Shown in pieces: positions 30,683 to 49,061 of a stretch of 64,000 nt of DNA (positions within the stretch are counted from its first letter, which is position 1; every line of letters begins with the position of its first letter). The DNA is taken from the IMG/VR virus record IMGVR_UViG_3300027763_000043, positions 1 through 64,000 of that record; one strand, 5' to 3'. Made by a program: the position numbers and the translations under genes. This stretch comes from a virus. The notes under the pieces were generated by a model. It was given only the letters and a program-made list of their open reading frames with translations, had not been told where the DNA came from and made no database searches.

Positions 30683-32476
30683 TTATAACACTACATTATA
30701 ATTAATTTGTGAATATAATGTATAGAAATTATCAGTATTTGATGATGGAATAAAAGGAACATCACTAGCAGCACCAGTACTCAGTGGTTGCTGTTGTTGT
30801 GGAGTAGAAGATCCGGAAGGAGCATAAACTACATTTGGTTTTGGTTCAGGTTCTGGTCCAATATTAAATGGAACAGTTTGCATTTTTGTTGTTTGTGCTG
30901 GAGTTATTTCTGGTGTAGAAGGTTTTGAAGAAGTTTCTGCTGGAGTAGTTGTTGATGTAGTAGAAGGTTTGGATGAAGTTTCTGCCGTTTTTGGCATCTC
31001 TTTAGAAGGAACTGGTGATGTCTGATTTACTGGATCAGGTAATTTCATTTCTTTCCAATCATATCCTTTTGATGTTGCCCAATCTTTTGCTTGCTGCTTT
31101 TCTTCAGAACTCATTTTATTCCAAGCGCCTTCTATTCTTCCTCTTGCCAAAGGATTATTTTTATATTGCCATGCCTGTTCAAACTGTTTTACTTTTGCAG
31201 GATCTGGTGCTTTTGGAGTTTCTGGTACTTTTGGAGTTTCTAATGCTTTTTGGGTATCTGGTGTTTTTTGAGTTTCTGGGGCATTGATCTGCAAATTACT
31301 TGCAGGGGGTGTCATAGAAGTTGTTGGAGCAGGTTTAGCAGTTGCTGGTTTTGGTGGTTCATCTTTTTTAAGTGGAGATGATGTAAGTTTATTTTTTTTA
31401 TTTTTTTGTGCTTCTTCTTTTGCAACCTTAGCAATTGCTTCTGCCTGTTTTTTCTTTTTTGGATCTTCCCCGAATAAATTACTACCAAATGCTTCTGCTA
31501 TTTCATCAGCAAGAAATCCCGCACCGGCAGCCAATTTCACAAATTTTCCTGGACCAAGAAGAGTTGCTATTGCTAAAAGGGCATCAACATTTTCACCATT
31601 GAAATAATTCATTAATCCAGAAATTACAGTTACACCTTTAGAAATAGTACCTCCTATTCCTCCTCCTACTTTTGGTCCTTTAGGTCCTGTACCTTTAGGT
31701 GGTGTTGGAGTTCTACCAGGTAAAGCACCCCCCAATCCACGCATGACTGCCTGAAATGGTTTAATAATTAATCCACCAACTAAAAATTTTCCAATCTTTC
31801 CGACAAGTCCAGTAATAGTACTAATAACTTTAACTATACCAACATTGATAATAGTAAATACACCACCCGCAATTAGTAGAGTTTTAATTACAGAATCTTT
31901 AATTTCATTTAGTTTCTTCGTATTGCCATCTTGAAGTGCCTTTAAGACATTAATTCCTTGAGTGGTTAACCATCCACCAAGAAGTGTCATTACAAAACTC
32001 ATCAAATTATTGAAACCAAATGATACCTTATCACCAATACGCTTTACTGGTTCTGATAAGGCACTCTGAATTTTAGTTTCTAATAAACCTTCTTGTCCTC
32101 CTCGTGCTCCAGATTCTGCTAATCTCTTTTGCTTCTCTTGTTCATAGAGATCCTTCTGCTTTTCTAATGCACTTTCACTTGCAGTGATTGTTGCAACCGA
32201 TTGTAACGTATCACTAATTCCATTCAATTGAAGTCTAACACTATCTACTTGCGCCTGAAAACTTCCAATCTGAGTTAGATTAGAAAGTATTTGTGCATTA
32301 GTTTGTGATAATTGGTTTACTTGTTTCTGCAGGGATGCTACTGCAGAAGTATTTGCGTTTATTGCAGATTCCGTTTGTGGATCAACTTTATTTCCACCAC
32401 CAAAAATACTTCCCGATACGGTACTCTGATTAATACCTGCAAGAGAATTAGAAAGTGGCGATGCTATAACAGCCAT
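30683..32476 (-). CDS. Tape-measure/baseplate hub-associated protein
   Basis: Coiled-coil N-terminus, hydrophobic segments, Pro/Thr-rich C-terminus; lies between gp51 and the lysin. Confidence 0.55.
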   Translation of the reverse strand: MAVIASPLSNSLAGINQSTVSGSIFGGGNKVDPQTESAINANTSAVASLQKQVNQLSQTNAQILSNLTQIGSFQAQVDSVRLQLNGISDTLQSVATITASESALEKQKDLYEQEKQKRLAESGARGGQEGLLETKIQSALSEPVKRIGDKVSFGFNNLMSFVMTLLGGWLTTQGINVLKALQDGNTKKLNEIKDSVIKTLLIAGGVFTIINVGIVKVISTITGLVGKIGKFLVGGLIIKPFQAVMRGLGGALPGRTPTPPKGTGPKGPKVGGGIGGTISKGVTVISGLMNYFNGENVDALLAIATLLGPGKFVKLAAGAGFLADEIAEAFGSNLFGEDPKKKKQAEAIAKVAKEEAQKNKKNKLTSSPLKKDEPPKPATAKPAPTTSMTPPASNLQINAPETQKTPDTQKALETPKVPETPKAPDPAKVKQFEQAWQYKNNPLARGRIEGAWNKMSSEEKQQAKDWATSKGYDWKEMKLPDPVNQTSPVPSKEMPKTAETSSKPSTTSTTTPAETSSKPSTPEITPAQTTKMQTVPFNIGPEPEPKPNVVYAPSGSSTPQQQQPLSTGAASDVPFIPSSNTDNFYTLYSQINYNVVL

Positions 32477-32509
32477 TAGGATTGTTGATTCTTGAGATTT
32501 TCTTCTTCA
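32476..32509 (-). pseudogene. Orphaned former 3' end of gp51
   Basis: GAAGAAGAAAATCTCAAGAATCAACAATCCTAATG encodes EEENLKNQQS*, matching the C-terminus of the gp51 ORF at 33253-33289. Confidence 0.85.
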
Positions 32510-32517
32510 GTCAAGAA

Positions 32518-32535
32518 TATTTATGTTCATAAATA
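32518..32535. promoter_or_regulatory. Back-to-back divergent late promoters
   Basis: TATTTATG-TT-CATAAATA gives CATAAATA on both strands. Confidence 0.6.
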
Positions 32536-32537
32536 GA

Positions 32538-32588
32538 AATACCTGTTGAACCGCATTCGCAGGGGGGGAGTGAAAATCTCCCCTTTTT
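32538..32588 (+). ncRNA. Candidate ~50-nt antisense sRNA against the endonuclease leader
   Basis: Late promoter; stem-loop with CCGCA loop; GGGGAG/CTCCCC-TTTTT terminator; 13-nt complementarity to 32603-32615. Confidence 0.45.
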
Positions 32589-32590
32589 AA

Positions 32591-32598
32591 TATAAATA
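32591..32598 (+). promoter_or_regulatory. T4-type late promoter of the endonuclease
   Basis: TATAAATA, 25 nt before the ATG. Confidence 0.8.
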
Positions 32599-32622
32599 AT
32601 ATTGCGGTTCAATAGAGTAGAA

Positions 32623-33237
32623 ATGTATTATACTTACGCATATTTGCGGGAAGATAGAACTCCCTACTACATAGGTAAAGGAAAAGATAATAGGGCATAT
32701 GAAAAAAGAAGGAAAGGTATAAAACCACCAAATGATAAATTAAGAATAATACTATTAAAACAAAATCTTACTGAAGAAGAAGCATTTAGACACGAAATCT
32801 ATATGATTTCTGTGTTTGGTAGAAAAGATTTGGGAACAGGTATTTTACACAATATGACTGATGGTGGAGATGGATGTAGTGGTGCTATTCGTTCATTAGA
32901 ATTCAAGGAAAATTTAAGAAATTTAAATAAAAATAAAGTTCTTTCAGAAGAACACAAAAGAAAAATAGGTGATGCACAAAAGGGAGACAAAAATCATAAT
33001 TATGGTAAGTCCTCCTCACCAGAAACTAGAGAAAAGATGAGTAAATCAAGAAGAGGTGAAAAGCACCATTCATCTAACTGGTGGAAACTTACCTACACAA
33101 CTGGAAATACAATTACGATATGTGGATTATCCATTTGGGCAAAGGAAAACGGTTATAATGTTGGTAATATTCATAGTATTTACATGGGAAATAGAAAAAA
33201 ACATAAAGATATCATAAAAGTTGAAAAATTAAAATAA
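32623..33237 (+). mobile_element. Free-standing GIY-YIG homing endonuclease with NUMOD3-like repeats
   Basis: YTYAY...YYIGKG..R, E, NMTDGGDG; SEEHKRKIG / SPETREKMS repeats; opposite in orientation to the flanking operon. Confidence 0.88.
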
Positions 33238-33252
33238 AACGGAGATAATATT

Positions 33253-33426
33253 TTAACTTGACTGCTGATTTTTAAGATTTTCTTCTTCAATGTACTGTTG
33301 CAATAATGTAATATAAACTTCCTTTTCCCAAGGAATCATATCATTAATTTCTGTTAATGACCATTTATGGTGTTGCATCAAGGAAAAATTAGTTCTAAAG
33401 TATGACGCAAGATCATTGTGCGCCAT
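33253..33426 (-). CDS. gp51: Baseplate hub assembly protein gp51 (57 aa, not in ORF track)
   Basis: MAHNDLASYFRTNFSLMQHHKWSLTEINDMIPWEKEVYITLLQQYIEEEN...; follows gp26. Confidence 0.85.
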   Translation of the reverse strand: MAHNDLASYFRTNFSLMQHHKWSLTEINDMIPWEKEVYITLLQQYIEEENLKNQQSS

Positions 33427-33428
33427 AC

Positions 33429-34148
33429 TTACACGAAAAAAGATGGAAGTCCCTCCAATACGACTTCACTTTCGACACCAGTATTAGGATTTTTAATTTG
33501 AATAAGATGAGAAAGTTTTGGCATCGTTTCAAAAAACTTCTCAATTTCCTTAAATTGCTTGGAACTTAATTGCTCAACAAATTCGGAAAGTTCTTTTTTA
33601 GAGCATTCACTTCCAACCCATGACTCTTCTTCAGAATACACTTGGTCAATACAAGCACAAATCAAGTCAAAAGATTCATTAACACCAATTCCCTCTCCAC
33701 TATTAAAATTGTTCTTAATGAATTCTGCCATAGAAGGATATTTCATTCTCATAGTCAAAGTATCATCCAACTTAATATCTCTCGAATGTCCTTCCTGATC
33801 TTGTACCATAATCTCATCCAAATTAATGCTGACAGGAACTTTTGTCACACCATCATCTGGACAAGTAATTAGTACATCAACAGTCTCACCAACTGACTTG
33901 CCACGAATATTAAGGAACAAATATTCAATGTCAAATGTGGCAAGATCATCAATCTTAATTCCTTTACTTAAAATACAGTTAGAAATTACTGTCTTAACTG
34001 CATTTGCAATTTGCTTACTATCCTCACTCTCCATTGCAATGATGAGGATCTTTTCTTCTTTAACTAAAAATGGCCTATATCTAATCTTTTTCTTTAATGA
34101 TGGAATTTCCAACTCATAAATTGGAGTCGCAATCTTTGGTAAAGGCAT
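33429..34148 (-). CDS. gp26: Baseplate hub subunit gp26
   Basis: MPLPKI..P.YEL...YRPFLVKEEKIL...FDIEYLFLNIRGKSVGE. Confidence 0.9.
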   Translation of the reverse strand: MPLPKIATPIYELEIPSLKKKIRYRPFLVKEEKILIIAMESEDSKQIANAVKTVISNCILSKGIKIDDLATFDIEYLFLNIRGKSVGETVDVLITCPDDGVTKVPVSINLDEIMVQDQEGHSRDIKLDDTLTMRMKYPSMAEFIKNNFNSGEGIGVNESFDLICACIDQVYSEEESWVGSECSKKELSEFVEQLSSKQFKEIEKFFETMPKLSHLIQIKNPNTGVESEVVLEGLPSFFV

Positions 34149-48277: not shown

Positions 48278-48474
48278 TCAGTAATAAGTCTCCATTCCAA
48301 ATTTAGGCTTTCCATATAATCTACAAGATCTTGTCCATTAATGGAACAAATATCTACGGCCGTATCAAAAACAAAATCTGCCTCATAGAGATTTTCTTCT
48401 CCATCAACCTCACGAATAGCAGTTAGATATCCTTGAATGTTTCTAATTTGAAACTTTCTAATTTCTTTAATCAT
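48274..48474 (-). CDS. Hypothetical protein
   Basis: 66 aa, ATGA overlap with the next gene. Confidence 0.6.
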   Translation of the reverse strand: MIKEIRKFQIRNIQGYLTAIREVDGEENLYEADFVFDTAVDICSINGQDLVDYMESLNLEWRLITE

Positions 48475-48491
48475 TGGTTTTCTCCTATAAA

Positions 48492-49061
48492 TTAATTTCC
48501 TCGGTCATAAGCATATTGGACACAATGACCATTTCTTCTTACATAATGAAAGAATACTTGATGATAATAACTATCTTTATTTCCTTTCATCGGTTCCCTC
48601 CAATGTGGAAGAATACATCCCTTATAGAGTGCTCCATCTCCTGGTTTCATAGTACATGAAAGAGGTGGTTCTCCATCAGGGCGCTCAAACATAATTGGCC
48701 ACTCATAATCTAAATTTTGACTTATATTTACAGTAATACTGATCTCACAAGAAGGTCTATCAGTATGCTTTGTAAGTTCATGACCTTTAAAATAAAATCG
48801 ATCATAATAATAGGTGGGATACAATCGTTCACCAATCGTATCCTCAATCACTTGCATAATTTCATAGTGTGCTTCTTTGAATTTGGGATGATTATATCGT
48901 GCCAAACTACCAGAAACTTGTGCCTCATTTGGTTCTACAGAAACTCTTCCAGGACCATCATAACGATACATTCCTCTTTCCCAAGGAACATCCTCATAAA
49001 GTTGAGATGCATCAATGAGATTTGGCATCTCAATTACAGACCATTCTACTTTATTACTCAT
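48492..49061 (-). CDS. 2OG-Fe(II) oxygenase-like protein
   Basis: LTKHTDRPSCEIS...GDGALYKG...HWRE...QVFFHY. Confidence 0.8.
   Translation of the reverse strand: MSNKVEWSVIEMPNLIDASQLYEDVPWERGMYRYDGPGRVSVEPNEAQVSGSLARYNHPKFKEAHYEIMQVIEDTIGERLYPTYYYDRFYFKGHELTKHTDRPSCEISITVNISQNLDYEWPIMFERPDGEPPLSCTMKPGDGALYKGCILPHWREPMKGNKDSYYHQVFFHYVRRNGHCVQYAYDRGN

What the first reader, a model, noticed from the sequence alone, without database searches (positions are those of the whole stretch)
32518..32625. Candidate loop-presenting antisense sRNA controlling a homing endonuclease
Seen: a plus-strand CATAAATA (32528-32535) precedes ~50 nt. These fold into a stem (CCUGU-U-GAA/UUCGCAGG) displaying the loop CCGCA, followed by a GGGGAG/CUCCCC-U5 terminator. 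A second late promoter, TATAAATA (32591), then starts the endonuclease mRNA. Its leader UGCGGUUCAAUAG (32603-32615) is complementary over 13 nt (one G-U pair) to 32543-32555 and abuts the likely RBS. Known: T4 I-TevI-type endonucleases are silenced by cis hairpins over the RBS, and plasmid antisense RNAs initiate pairing through loops. Inference: here the silencing arm is a separately promoted and terminated sRNA, giving a type-I-antitoxin-like throttle on a toxic nuclease. The alternative is a cis hairpin that forms only on read-through transcripts.
Basis: partly seen in the sequence, partly recalled or inferred. Interest (0 to 1): 0.72.

Follow-up and report, generated by a model that had tools for sequence, protein, structure and literature searches.

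The report
Two-promoter RNA mask of a homing endonuclease
A selfish DNA-cutting gene in this T4-like cyanophage carries a conserved, portable RNA control region whose upstream segment pairs with and hides the gene's translation start. That segment has its own late promoter and terminator, so it is probably also made as a separate ~48-base antisense RNA, but no RNA data exist.

Summary
The pairing is under selection. In 49 distinct homologous cassettes from IMG/VR, the upstream arm and the endonuclease leader covary: 94.5% paired against 66.7% in shuffles, 0/500 shuffles as high. G.U pairs outnumber A.C by 22 to 0, which points to RNA on the + strand.

A late promoter nested inside a hairpin that hides the RBS is the known T4 I-TevI / Aeh1 mobE design. 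It was already seen in cyanophage-like metagenomic endonuclease leaders (Dassa 2009).

Three features go beyond that design. First, a second late-type promoter P1 (N[A/C]TAAATA) is kept in 49 of 50 cassettes, 5 nt before the arm. Second, a covarying local hairpin SL1 starts at the predicted +1. Third, a GC hairpin with a U-tract follows directly. Together these look like a ~48-nt sRNA gene.

In this window the endonuclease is the only + strand gene inside a minus-strand block of more than 20 kb. P1 is therefore the only evident source of the masking arm.

No RNA evidence exists, so action in trans (about 50%) cannot be separated from a cis-only mask (about 35%). This is a new variant of a known kind. 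The scan has noted the same module before on at least 15 other genomes, with the same verdict.

The parts
32518..32525 (-). Outward-facing late-type promoter (CATAAATA on the minus strand), 49 nt before the ATG of the 597-aa gene (start 32476)
   Evidence: A minus-strand N[A/C]TAAATA box is present at the same place in the related cassettes that lie antisense to their flank (L003-L012, L022).
32528..32535 (+). P1, a late-type promoter box (CATAAATA). Predicted +1 is at 32541, using the T4 rule of the sixth base after the box.
   Evidence: N[A/C]TAAATA is kept in 49 of 50 distinct class-1 cassettes, 5 nt before the arm; the box is depleted in this genome and mostly sits 22-50 nt before gene starts. 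P1 and P2 are the only + strand copies in the first 35 kb of the window.
32541..32588 (+). Predicted ~48-nt short RNA, running from the P1 +1 to the end of the U-run. Its existence is inferred, not observed.
   Evidence: two-hairpin fold, -19.2 kcal/mol. (47 of 48 distinct relatives give the same two-hairpin fold).
32540..32555 (+). Upstream (anti-leader) arm. It pairs with 32603-32619.
32542..32563 (+). SL1, a local hairpin whose 5' strand is the start of the anti-leader arm. Its loop and upper stem carry the part that is complementary to the 5' end of the P2 transcript.
   Evidence: the outer stem is 97% canonical against 67% with shuffled partners (maximum 0.749 in 1000), and there are many stem types.
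32564..32588 (+). SL2, a GC-rich hairpin plus U5: an intrinsic-terminator-like site active on the + strand only
   Evidence: The stem covaries among relatives. The U-tract is weak or absent in about 7 relatives.
32591..32598 (+). P2, the consensus T4-type late promoter TATAAATA. Predicted +1 is at 32604.
   Evidence: TATAAATA in 46 of 49 cassettes, and AATAAATA or CATAAATA in the other three.
32603..32619 (+). Leader arm of the endonuclease mRNA, including the SD-like AGAG. It ends 3 nt before the AUG.
   Evidence: in 47 of 47 combinations the helix starts at the predicted +1 of the P2 RNA..
32623..33237 (+). Homing endonuclease gene, 204 aa: a GIY-YIG-like N-terminus plus NUMOD3 motifs
   Evidence: NUMOD3 61.8 bits; LEM-3 GIY-YIG below cut-off; phrog_314 homing endonuclease, 6e-14. 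TIGR01453 below cut-off.
32480..32509 (-). Orphan copy of the last 10 codons of gp51, still overlapping the next gene's ATG as TAATG. This is the left border of the cassette.
   Evidence: D1: 30 nt, 87% identical to 33260-33289.
33260..33289 (-). In-use, synonymously recoded 3' end of gp51 (gene 33253-33426). This is the right border of the cassette.
   Evidence: phrog_634, baseplate hub assembly catalyst.

Best explanation
The stretch 32518-32622 is the portable control module of a free-standing homing-endonuclease cassette.

Shown by sequence and comparison:
- An upstream arm (32540-32555) pairs at the RNA level with the whole short leader of the endonuclease mRNA (32603-32619), covering the SD-like AGAG up to 3 nt before the AUG.
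- A consensus late promoter P2 lies between the arms, so P2 transcripts carry only the leader arm and can be translated.

Inferred:
- The upstream arm is transcribed from its own late-type promoter P1.
- That RNA starts at about 32541, folds into SL1 plus the terminator hairpin SL2, and mostly ends in the U-run near 32588, giving a ~48-nt RNA.
- The upper part of SL1 is complementary to the extreme 5' end of the P2 mRNA. Pairing would start there and spread by displacing the 3' strand of SL1, which mimics the leader, until the ribosome site is covered.
- Any P1 transcript that reads through SL2 masks itself in cis by the same helix.

The net effect would be a throttle that keeps nuclease output low and sub-linear with genome copy number late in infection. 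This is the logic of IS10 RNA-OUT/RNA-IN.
For: Pairing is real and is at the RNA level:
- The full leader folds at -34.3 kcal/mol, z -5.45.
- On 49 cassettes, 94.5% of cells are paired against 66.7% in shuffles, and the covariation score is 0.781 against 0.268, 0/500 for both. Slid controls give 29-40%.
- All 11 RNAalifold pairs show double-sided changes.
- Anchored at the mRNA 5' end, the first 7 pairs are 100% canonical with 2-5 pair types each. G.U outnumbers A.C 22 to 0.
- Cognate duplexes average -20.8 kcal/mol, non-cognate -9.9 +/- 3.9.

Evidence for a dedicated short RNA:
- P1 is kept in 49 of 50 distinct class-1 cassettes, always 5 nt before the arm. It is kept at many insertion sites and in both orientations relative to the upstream gene.
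- N[A/C]TAAATA behaves as the late promoter of this phage. There are 29 copies in 93 kb, mostly 22-50 nt before gene starts, and all four first bases are used.
- The window has 23 copies against 44.7 +/- 6.9 expected. P1 and P2 are the only + strand copies in the first 35 kb.
- SL1 starts at predicted +1 or +2 in 47 of 48 RNAs. Its stem covaries: 97% canonical against 67% shuffled. SL2 follows after 0-1 nt in 44 of 47.
- Net trans hybridisation, after paying for opening SL1, is -13.5 kcal/mol for cognate pairs (range -9.4 to -17.4) and -3.8 +/- 3.4 for non-cognate pairs.

Local context:
- Every gene from 11672 to 32476 is on the minus strand. No upstream + strand gene can supply the arm by read-through.
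- The module is nonetheless intact here and in cassettes at the same site whose proteins are only 70-92% identical.
Against: - No transcript data of any kind were available. Both transcription starts are inferred from the T4 spacing rule, not measured in a cyanophage.
- In five relatives (L028, L042, L050, L051, L072) P2 abuts SL2 with almost no U-tract. In L005 and L006 the tract is AUUAUUA. There P1 RNA should mostly read through, which favours action in cis.
- A sister class of cassettes (L023, L041, L053, L062, L066, L073) keeps complementary arms and P2 but has no recognisable P1. The mask itself therefore does not need P1.
- Repressor and target would be made in the same late period, so the design has no temporal logic. 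Only a dosage logic remains.
- Some of the covariation may come from whole modules being swapped between cassettes rather than from independent compensatory events.
Confidence: 0.5

Rival explanations
1. Cis-only mask, the classical T4 design. The upstream arm matters only on RNAs that contain both arms: read-through from P1, from upstream genes, or from stray antisense transcription. On those RNAs it hides the ribosome site. SL2 merely reduces and insulates incoming transcription. P2 gives the only translatable mRNA. Any terminated P1 product is an inert by-product.
For: - This is the documented mechanism for I-TevI, I-TevII, I-TevIII, segB and Aeh1 mobE (PMC2988022; PMC3014915).
- Hairpins containing TATAAATA were already reported in the 5' UTRs of cyanophage-like metagenomic endonuclease genes (PMC2677866).
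- The minimum-energy fold of the full leader is the long-range helix.
- Class-2 cassettes keep the arms without P1.
- Several class-1 relatives lack a U-tract after SL2.
- About 28 of 46 class-1 cassettes lie in the same orientation as the upstream reading frame, so read-through is available to them.
Against: - It gives no reason for P1 to be conserved at a fixed 5-nt spacing in 49 of 50 cassettes. This phage otherwise purges late-promoter boxes from the antisense strand.
- It gives no reason for a covarying SL1 that competes with the cis helix.
- In this window there is no + strand gene upstream for more than 20 kb, so the classical substrate of the mask is missing.
Confidence: 0.35
2. A short P1 RNA is made, but its main role is something other than repressing its own endonuclease mRNA. 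For example, it could repress the leader of a related endonuclease on a co-infecting phage, protect or insulate neighbouring transcripts, or act with the minus-strand late mRNA that crosses the cassette.
For: - The sequence marks of an sRNA gene are present.
- The cassette lies antisense to a late operon, so complementary minus-strand RNA exists.
- Arms are highly diverse between cassettes and differ between two cassettes of one genome, S-SRM01.
Against: The only conserved complementarity found is to the cognate leader. Cognate ddG is -13.5 against -3.8 kcal/mol for non-cognate pairs. The module is the same whether or not the cassette lies antisense to its neighbours.
Confidence: 0.08
3. A DNA-level element: the inverted repeat flanking P2 is an operator for a dimeric protein or for the endonuclease itself (as with I-TevI autorepression). 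Alternatively, it is a chance palindrome without function.
For: I-TevI represses its own late promoter by binding an operator that overlaps it (PMC2988022). The two arms bracket P2.
Against: - Wobble asymmetry: 22 G.U and 0 A.C in the first ten pairs. This is expected for RNA on the + strand and not for a DNA palindrome.
- The arm sequences are hypervariable while their complementarity is kept.
- Chance is excluded by recurrence in 49 cassettes.
Confidence: 0.03

Closest known systems
T4-type translational masks with a nested late promoter (I-TevI, I-TevII, I-TevIII, segB; mobE of Aeromonas phage Aeh1)
   Same: [quoted passage not shown] A TATAAATA late promoter is placed so that late transcripts lack the 5' arm and can be translated (PMC2988022; PMC3014915).
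   Different: In those cases the 5' arm comes from long early or middle transcripts of upstream host genes. Here the arm has its own late-type promoter 5 nt upstream. It is folded into its own covarying hairpin and is followed by a terminator that lies inside the 'loop' of the mask. In this window no upstream same-strand gene exists.
Hairpins in the 5' UTRs of free-standing endonuclease genes of 'fractured gene' loci from marine metagenomes (Dassa et al. 2009, PMC2677866)
   Same: [quoted passage not shown] This is very probably the same module family.
   Different: In the text I could read, that paper interprets it as a cis translational hairpin only. It does not describe a second upstream late promoter, the local hairpin SL1 or an internal terminator. 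Its supplementary motif figure was not available.
IS10 RNA-OUT / RNA-IN (from my own knowledge, not checked in a paper here)
   Same: A mobile element throttles its own DNA-breaking enzyme with a small, stable stem-loop RNA. The loop of that RNA pairs first with the extreme 5' end of the enzyme's mRNA and then covers its ribosome site. Inhibition grows with copy number.
   Different: RNA-OUT is transcribed from the opposite strand across the same DNA. Here the complementarity is encoded as an inverted repeat on the same strand, upstream of the target.
c4 antisense RNA of phages P1/P7 (Rfam C4 family; from my own knowledge)
   Same: An antisense RNA is encoded upstream on the same strand as its target. 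Its exposed loops pair with the ribosome site of a downstream gene.
   Different: c4 is processed out of the same transcript as its target and controls an antirepressor. No Rfam family, C4 included, matched this region.
CfrI antisense RNA of cyanophage S-PM2 (Millard et al. 2010, cited in PMC5931967)
   Same: A non-coding RNA in a T4-like cyanophage that is linked to a homing endonuclease gene (F-CphI).
   Different: CfrI is a long, true cis-antisense transcript spanning the psbA / F-CphI junction on the opposite strand. It is not a ~50-nt same-strand RNA aimed at the leader.
Type I toxin-antitoxin systems
   Same: A small RNA blocks translation of a potentially harmful product encoded next to it.
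   Different: The target here is a 204-aa nuclease of a lytic phage, not a small membrane peptide. There is no addiction or post-segregational logic and no differential-stability evidence. This is an analogy only.

Membership tests
T4-type translational mask with nested late promoter | An RNA helix includes the translation initiation region of the endonuclease gene | tested here: met
   A 16-bp helix, 32540-32555 with 32603-32619, ends 3 nt before the AUG. It is conserved with covariation in 49 cassettes.
T4-type translational mask with nested late promoter | A late promoter is placed so that late transcripts lack the 5' arm | tested here: met
   TATAAATA at 32591-32598 lies between the arms. 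The predicted +1 at 32604 is the first paired base of the leader arm in 47 of 47 combinations. The start site is predicted, not measured.
T4-type translational mask with nested late promoter | The 5' arm is supplied by longer early or middle transcripts of upstream genes | tested here: not met
   All genes from 11672 to 32476 are on the opposite strand. Instead, a dedicated late-type box P1 sits 5 nt before the arm.
T4-type translational mask with nested late promoter | Demonstrated repression of translation on masked transcripts | not testable with these tools
   Needs reporter or protein assays.
Stand-alone antisense sRNA gene (IS10 RNA-OUT-like, c4-like) | Own promoter | tested here: met
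   Met at the sequence level only. N[A/C]TAAATA is kept in 49 of 50 cassettes at fixed spacing. The same box variants precede structural genes of this phage. The box is depleted elsewhere.
Stand-alone antisense sRNA gene (IS10 RNA-OUT-like, c4-like) | Own terminator giving a discrete short RNA | tested here: inconclusive
   The window copy has a GC hairpin plus U5. Most relatives have a UUUUCUU-type tail, but about 7 have little or no U-tract.
Stand-alone antisense sRNA gene (IS10 RNA-OUT-like, c4-like) | A stable autonomous fold that exposes the complementary bases | tested here: met
   A two-hairpin fold is predicted in 47 of 48 distinct RNAs. The SL1 stem covaries, and the upper part of SL1 is complementary to the mRNA 5' end.
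Stand-alone antisense sRNA gene (IS10 RNA-OUT-like, c4-like) | The RNA is detected and acts in trans | not testable with these tools
Rfam families (including C4 antisense RNA) | Match to a curated covariance model | tested here: not met
   No match at E <= 1 in 31500-34000 on either strand.
Type I toxin-antitoxin | The toxin is a small hydrophobic peptide whose mRNA outlives the antitoxin RNA | tested here: not met
   The target is a 204-aa NUMOD3 endonuclease. RNA stabilities are unknown.
GIY-YIG / NUMOD3 free-standing homing endonuclease (Seg / I-TevI type) | GIY-YIG catalytic domain | tested here: inconclusive
   PF22945 scores 17.6 bits (cut-off 27). TIGR01453 scores 23.6 bits (cut-off 56). 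There is no PDB sequence match. The motifs YTY...YIGKG...R...E...N can be read in the first 80 residues. phrog_314 homing endonuclease matches at 6e-14.
GIY-YIG / NUMOD3 free-standing homing endonuclease (Seg / I-TevI type) | NUMOD3 DNA-binding motifs, and an insertion between conserved phage genes with a recoded target | tested here: met
   NUMOD3 scores 61.8 bits with 2 stretches. The cassette is flanked by a 30-nt duplication of the gp51 3' end that differs at synonymous sites.

The most novel reading that the evidence does not exclude
P1-SL1-SL2 is a true sRNA gene. It would be the first trans-acting regulatory RNA of T4-like phages with an identified target, and it travels together with that target as a self-contained pair inside homing-endonuclease cassettes. 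The arms have diversified into many mutually non-reacting specificities, much as plasmid antisense incompatibility groups do. Each endonuclease in a phage with several cassettes would then have a private, copy-number-compensating throttle. A cassette remnant that keeps only the sRNA could even blunt homing by a co-infecting relative.
Probability: 0.42. Interest if true: 0.75.

Novelty: new variant of a known kind. Interest (0 to 1): 0.6.

Why it matters
A 2010 review of T4 post-transcriptional control states that no small trans-acting regulatory RNA had been functionally characterised from T4 (PMC3014915).

This module is a compact and very widespread candidate. There are 205 related endonuclease loci in IMG/VR, and at least one cultured phage, S-SRM01, carries it. 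The predicted target, start and end are exact, and covariation is strong, so a Northern blot and a two-plasmid reporter would settle the question.

If the RNA acts in trans, it shows how selfish nucleases limit their own cost to the phage by antisense control, as transposons do. It would also supply a natural library of orthogonal sRNA/leader pairs.

If the RNA acts only in cis, the module is still a well-supported, portable elaboration of the I-TevI / mobE mask. It would then help in annotating endonuclease cassettes and late promoters in cyanophage metagenomes.

Tried and rejected
- Rfam scan of 31500-34000 at E <= 1: nothing.
- Other copies of the module or the endonuclease in the 93-kb record: none. 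No other tandem pair of late boxes forms a module.
- Gibb & Edgell 2007 (PMC1913452) is not held. The supplement of Dassa 2009 is not held. A search for a cyanophage paper on late-promoter start sites found nothing.
- One paper reading failed on a term that was too short.
- Literature searches for an sRNA controlling a phage homing endonuclease returned only CfrI and general reviews.
- DNA operator or palindrome reading: rejected on G.U against A.C asymmetry.
- The 33-aa minus-strand ORF 32511-32612 and the in-frame TTG at 32602: rejected as coding features. The arms change by compensatory substitutions that ignore those frames, and relatives start at the ATG.
- P1 as a mere mirror image of the minus-strand box: rejected. 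The two boxes differ at non-palindromic positions in relatives, and P1 is kept in cassettes that have no minus-strand box.
- Sequence search of the endonuclease against PDB chains gave only spurious weak hits.
Full report
**Setting**

The window is part of a 92,973-base IMG/VR virus record. Its best DNA matches are T4-like cyanomyoviruses of Synechococcus and Prochlorococcus.

Every substantial gene from 11672 to 35068 lies on the minus strand, with one exception. That exception is the ORF at 32623-33237 (+), 204 aa. It has two NUMOD3 motifs (61.8 bits), a sub-threshold GIY-YIG match, a PHROG homing-endonuclease match and a sub-threshold TIGR01453 match. The motifs YTY...YIGKG...R...E...N can be read at its N-terminus.

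The ORF sits between two minus-strand genes. One is gp51, the baseplate hub assembly catalyst (33253-33426, phrog_634). The other is a 597-aa gene (30683-32476). The insert is bracketed by a 30-nt direct repeat, 32480-32509 and 33260-33289, 87% identical. The repeat encodes the last ten codons of gp51. The left copy still overlaps the next gene's ATG as TAATG. The right copy is the one in use and differs at synonymous positions. This is therefore a free-standing homing-endonuclease cassette inserted antisense into a late structural operon.

**The observation**

- CATAAATA at 32528-32535 (P1).
- A hairpin at 32542-32563 (SL1).
- A GC hairpin plus U5 at 32564-32588 (SL2), picked up as a + strand terminator-like site.
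- TATAAATA at 32591-32598 (P2).
- The inverted repeat 32543-32555 / 32603-32615 (I4).
- The ATG at 32623.

The short RNA folds as two adjacent hairpins at -19.2 kcal/mol.

The full leader prefers a long-range helix of 16 pairs, 32540-32555 with 32603-32619. This helix encloses SL2 and P2 and ends 3 nt before the AUG. Its energy is -34.3 kcal/mol, z -5.45, with 0 of 200 shuffles as good. No Rfam family matches.

**Relatives**

A scan of IMG/VR found 205 loci encoding relatives of the endonuclease, and 80 were fetched. Reading their upstream regions shows that 50 distinct cassettes share one layout, which I call class 1. In order, it consists of:
1. A late-type box.
2. Five bases.
3. The arm, folded in a local hairpin.
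4. A GC hairpin.
5. TATAAATA.
6. Five bases.
7. The complementary arm.
8. The start codon.

These cassettes lie at many insertion sites and in both orientations relative to the upstream reading frame. The arm sequences differ widely, but the two arms of each cassette always match each other.

**Is the pairing selected, and on which molecule?**

On a MAFFT alignment of 49 distinct modules, RNAalifold recovers the long-range helix. All 11 pairs show double-sided changes.

The pair count gives the following:
- 94.5% of cells paired against 66.7% in shuffles (0/500).
- 175 cells with changes on both sides against 46 in shuffles (0/500).
- Covariation score 0.781 against 0.268 (0/500).
- 29-40% paired when the partner strand is slid by 1-3 columns.

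I also anchored the helix at the predicted 5' end of the P2 transcript, which avoids alignment artefacts. The first seven pairs are then 100% canonical, with two to five pair types each. There are 22 G.U and no A.C pairs in the first ten positions. That asymmetry fits RNA on the + strand and argues against a DNA palindrome.

Cognate arm/leader duplexes average -20.8 kcal/mol. Non-cognate combinations average -9.9 +/- 3.9.

**What is already known**

A helix that hides the ribosome site of a homing endonuclease gene, with a late promoter nested so that late transcripts escape, is the established control of T4 I-TevI, I-TevII, I-TevIII and segB, and of Aeh1 mobE (PMC2988022; PMC3014915).

Dassa et al. 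2009 reported hairpins containing TATAAATA in the 5' UTRs of cyanophage-like metagenomic endonuclease genes, with two mutually complementary conserved motifs. They read these as that kind of cis mask (PMC2677866).

The masking helix and P2 are therefore a known kind of element.

**What goes beyond it**

1. P1.
   - N[A/C]TAAATA is present in 49 of the 50 class-1 cassettes, always 5 nt before the first paired base. This is the same spacing that P2 has to its arm.
   - In this phage the box behaves as the late promoter. There are only 29 copies on both strands of 93 kb. About 16 of them lie 22-50 nt before a gene start, with T, C, G or A at the first position, or with C at the second.
   - The window has 23 copies against 44.7 +/- 6.9 expected from dinucleotide shuffles.
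   - On the + strand of the first 35 kb, which is antisense to the structural genes, the only two copies are P1 and P2. An accidental antisense late promoter would therefore be unusual here.
2. SL1.
   - In 47 of 48 distinct predicted RNAs a hairpin starts at predicted nucleotide +1 or +2.
   - Its outer stem is 97% canonical against 67% with shuffled partners (maximum 0.749 in 1000). Many stem types occur, for example CCUG/CAGG, CCUUA/UAAGG, CUUUA/UAAAG, UCUGU/ACAGA, CUCUA/UAGAG and CUUGA/UCAAG.
   - The 3' strand of SL1 thus mimics the part of the leader nearest the start codon. The upper part of SL1 carries the bases complementary to the first bases of the P2 transcript.
   - A purely cis mask has no need for this competing hairpin.
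3. SL2 follows SL1 after 0-1 nt in 44 of 47 RNAs. In most it ends in a UUUUCUU-type tail.

With the T4 spacing rule, the P1 RNA of the window would run from 32541 to about 32588, roughly 48 nt. The P2 mRNA would begin at 32604, which is exactly the first paired base of the leader arm. This holds in 47 of 47 combinations.

Co-folding the short RNA with the P2 leader, after paying for the opening of SL1, gives a net -13.5 kcal/mol for cognate pairs (range -9.4 to -17.4). Non-cognate pairs give -3.8 +/- 3.4.

**Local context**

In this window no + strand gene lies upstream for more than 20 kb. The classical substrate of a cis mask, namely early or middle read-through from upstream genes, is therefore absent. 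P1 is the only evident source of RNA that carries the arm.

The module is nevertheless intact here. It is also intact in cassettes at the same gp51 site whose proteins have diverged to 70-92% identity. This argues that the P1-driven RNA matters in this orientation.

**Cautions**

Start sites are inferred.
- In five relatives P2 abuts SL2 with almost no U-tract, and in two more the tract is poor. There P1 RNA should read through and mask itself in cis.
- A sister class of cassettes (L023, L041, L053, L062, L066, L073) keeps P2 and complementary arms, with the upstream arm in the apical loop of a long terminator-like hairpin. It has no recognisable P1. The mask is therefore older or more general than P1.
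- Repressor and target would be made at the same time, so the only logic is a dosage throttle.
- Cassettes with similar proteins can carry identical or wholly different arms. Some of the covariation therefore reflects module swapping. Stepwise compensated changes are also seen within sub-families, for example L018, L020, L027, L019 and L049.

**Verdict**

The RNA-level mask is as good as shown by comparative evidence, at about 0.9. It belongs functionally with the I-TevI / mobE masks, except that the arm is not supplied by upstream genes.

I put the claim that the arm is made as a separate ~48-nt late RNA acting in trans, with cis masking of read-through molecules as a second mode, at about 0.5. 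A cis-only mask is at about 0.35. Other roles for the short RNA are at about 0.08. A DNA-level element or no function is at about 0.03.

The link to type I antitoxins is an analogy only. IS10 RNA-OUT/RNA-IN and the P1/P7 c4 RNA are closer functional parallels; both comparisons come from my own knowledge.

The scan has reported this same module on at least 15 other genomes, and follow-up agents reached the same verdict. I reached mine from the tests above before reading those notes.

The isolate Synechococcus phage S-SRM01 carries class-1 modules in front of two GIY-YIG-type genes and, by annotation, an HNH gene. The decisive RNA experiments are therefore feasible.

Noticed in passing
window 32480-32509 and 33260-33289: A 30-nt direct repeat brackets the cassette. 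Both copies encode the last ten codons of gp51 (EEENLKNQQS). The left, orphan copy still overlaps the 597-aa gene's ATG as TAATG. The right copy is in use and differs at synonymous third positions, as expected if the donor allele is recoded to escape cleavage.
   Followed up: partly
window 32518-32525 (minus strand): A second CATAAATA points outward, 49 nt before the start of the 597-aa gene that the insertion uncoupled from gp51. The same minus-strand N[A/C]TAAATA box is present in related cassettes that lie antisense to their flank (L003-L012, L022). It is absent from cassettes in the sense orientation. The cassette therefore seems to bring a replacement late promoter for the host gene downstream of it.
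   Followed up: partly
L023, L041, L053, L062, L066, L073 (upstream of position 1501 in each): A second class of control region occurs in front of related endonucleases. It has no P1. The anti-leader arm sits in the apical loop of a long GGGGC...GTCCCC hairpin followed by a U-rich tail and P2. In L023 a sigma-70-like TTGACC-17-TATTAT lies just upstream of the hairpin.
   Followed up: partly
Synechococcus phage S-SRM01, MW015081.1, about 48434-48545 (H71); also L084, L085, L086: This cultured phage has four places similar to the class-1 module. One lies by a gene annotated as an HNH endonuclease, so the module is not tied to one nuclease family. Another endonuclease copy (L086) instead has a perfect TTGACA-17-TATAAT promoter and no arms.
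   Followed up: no
whole window, both strands: The late-promoter core [A/C]TAAATA is about two-fold depleted: 23 copies against 44.7 +/- 6.9 expected. On the + strand of the first 35 kb, which is antisense to the structural genes, it occurs only at P1 and P2. This suggests selection against antisense late promoters.
   Followed up: partly
homologous modules, e.g. L039, L045, L057, L063 (SL2): In many relatives SL2 is symmetrical: an A-tract, a GC hairpin, then a U-tract. It would therefore look like a terminator on both strands. In the window it is a terminator shape on the + strand only.
   Followed up: no
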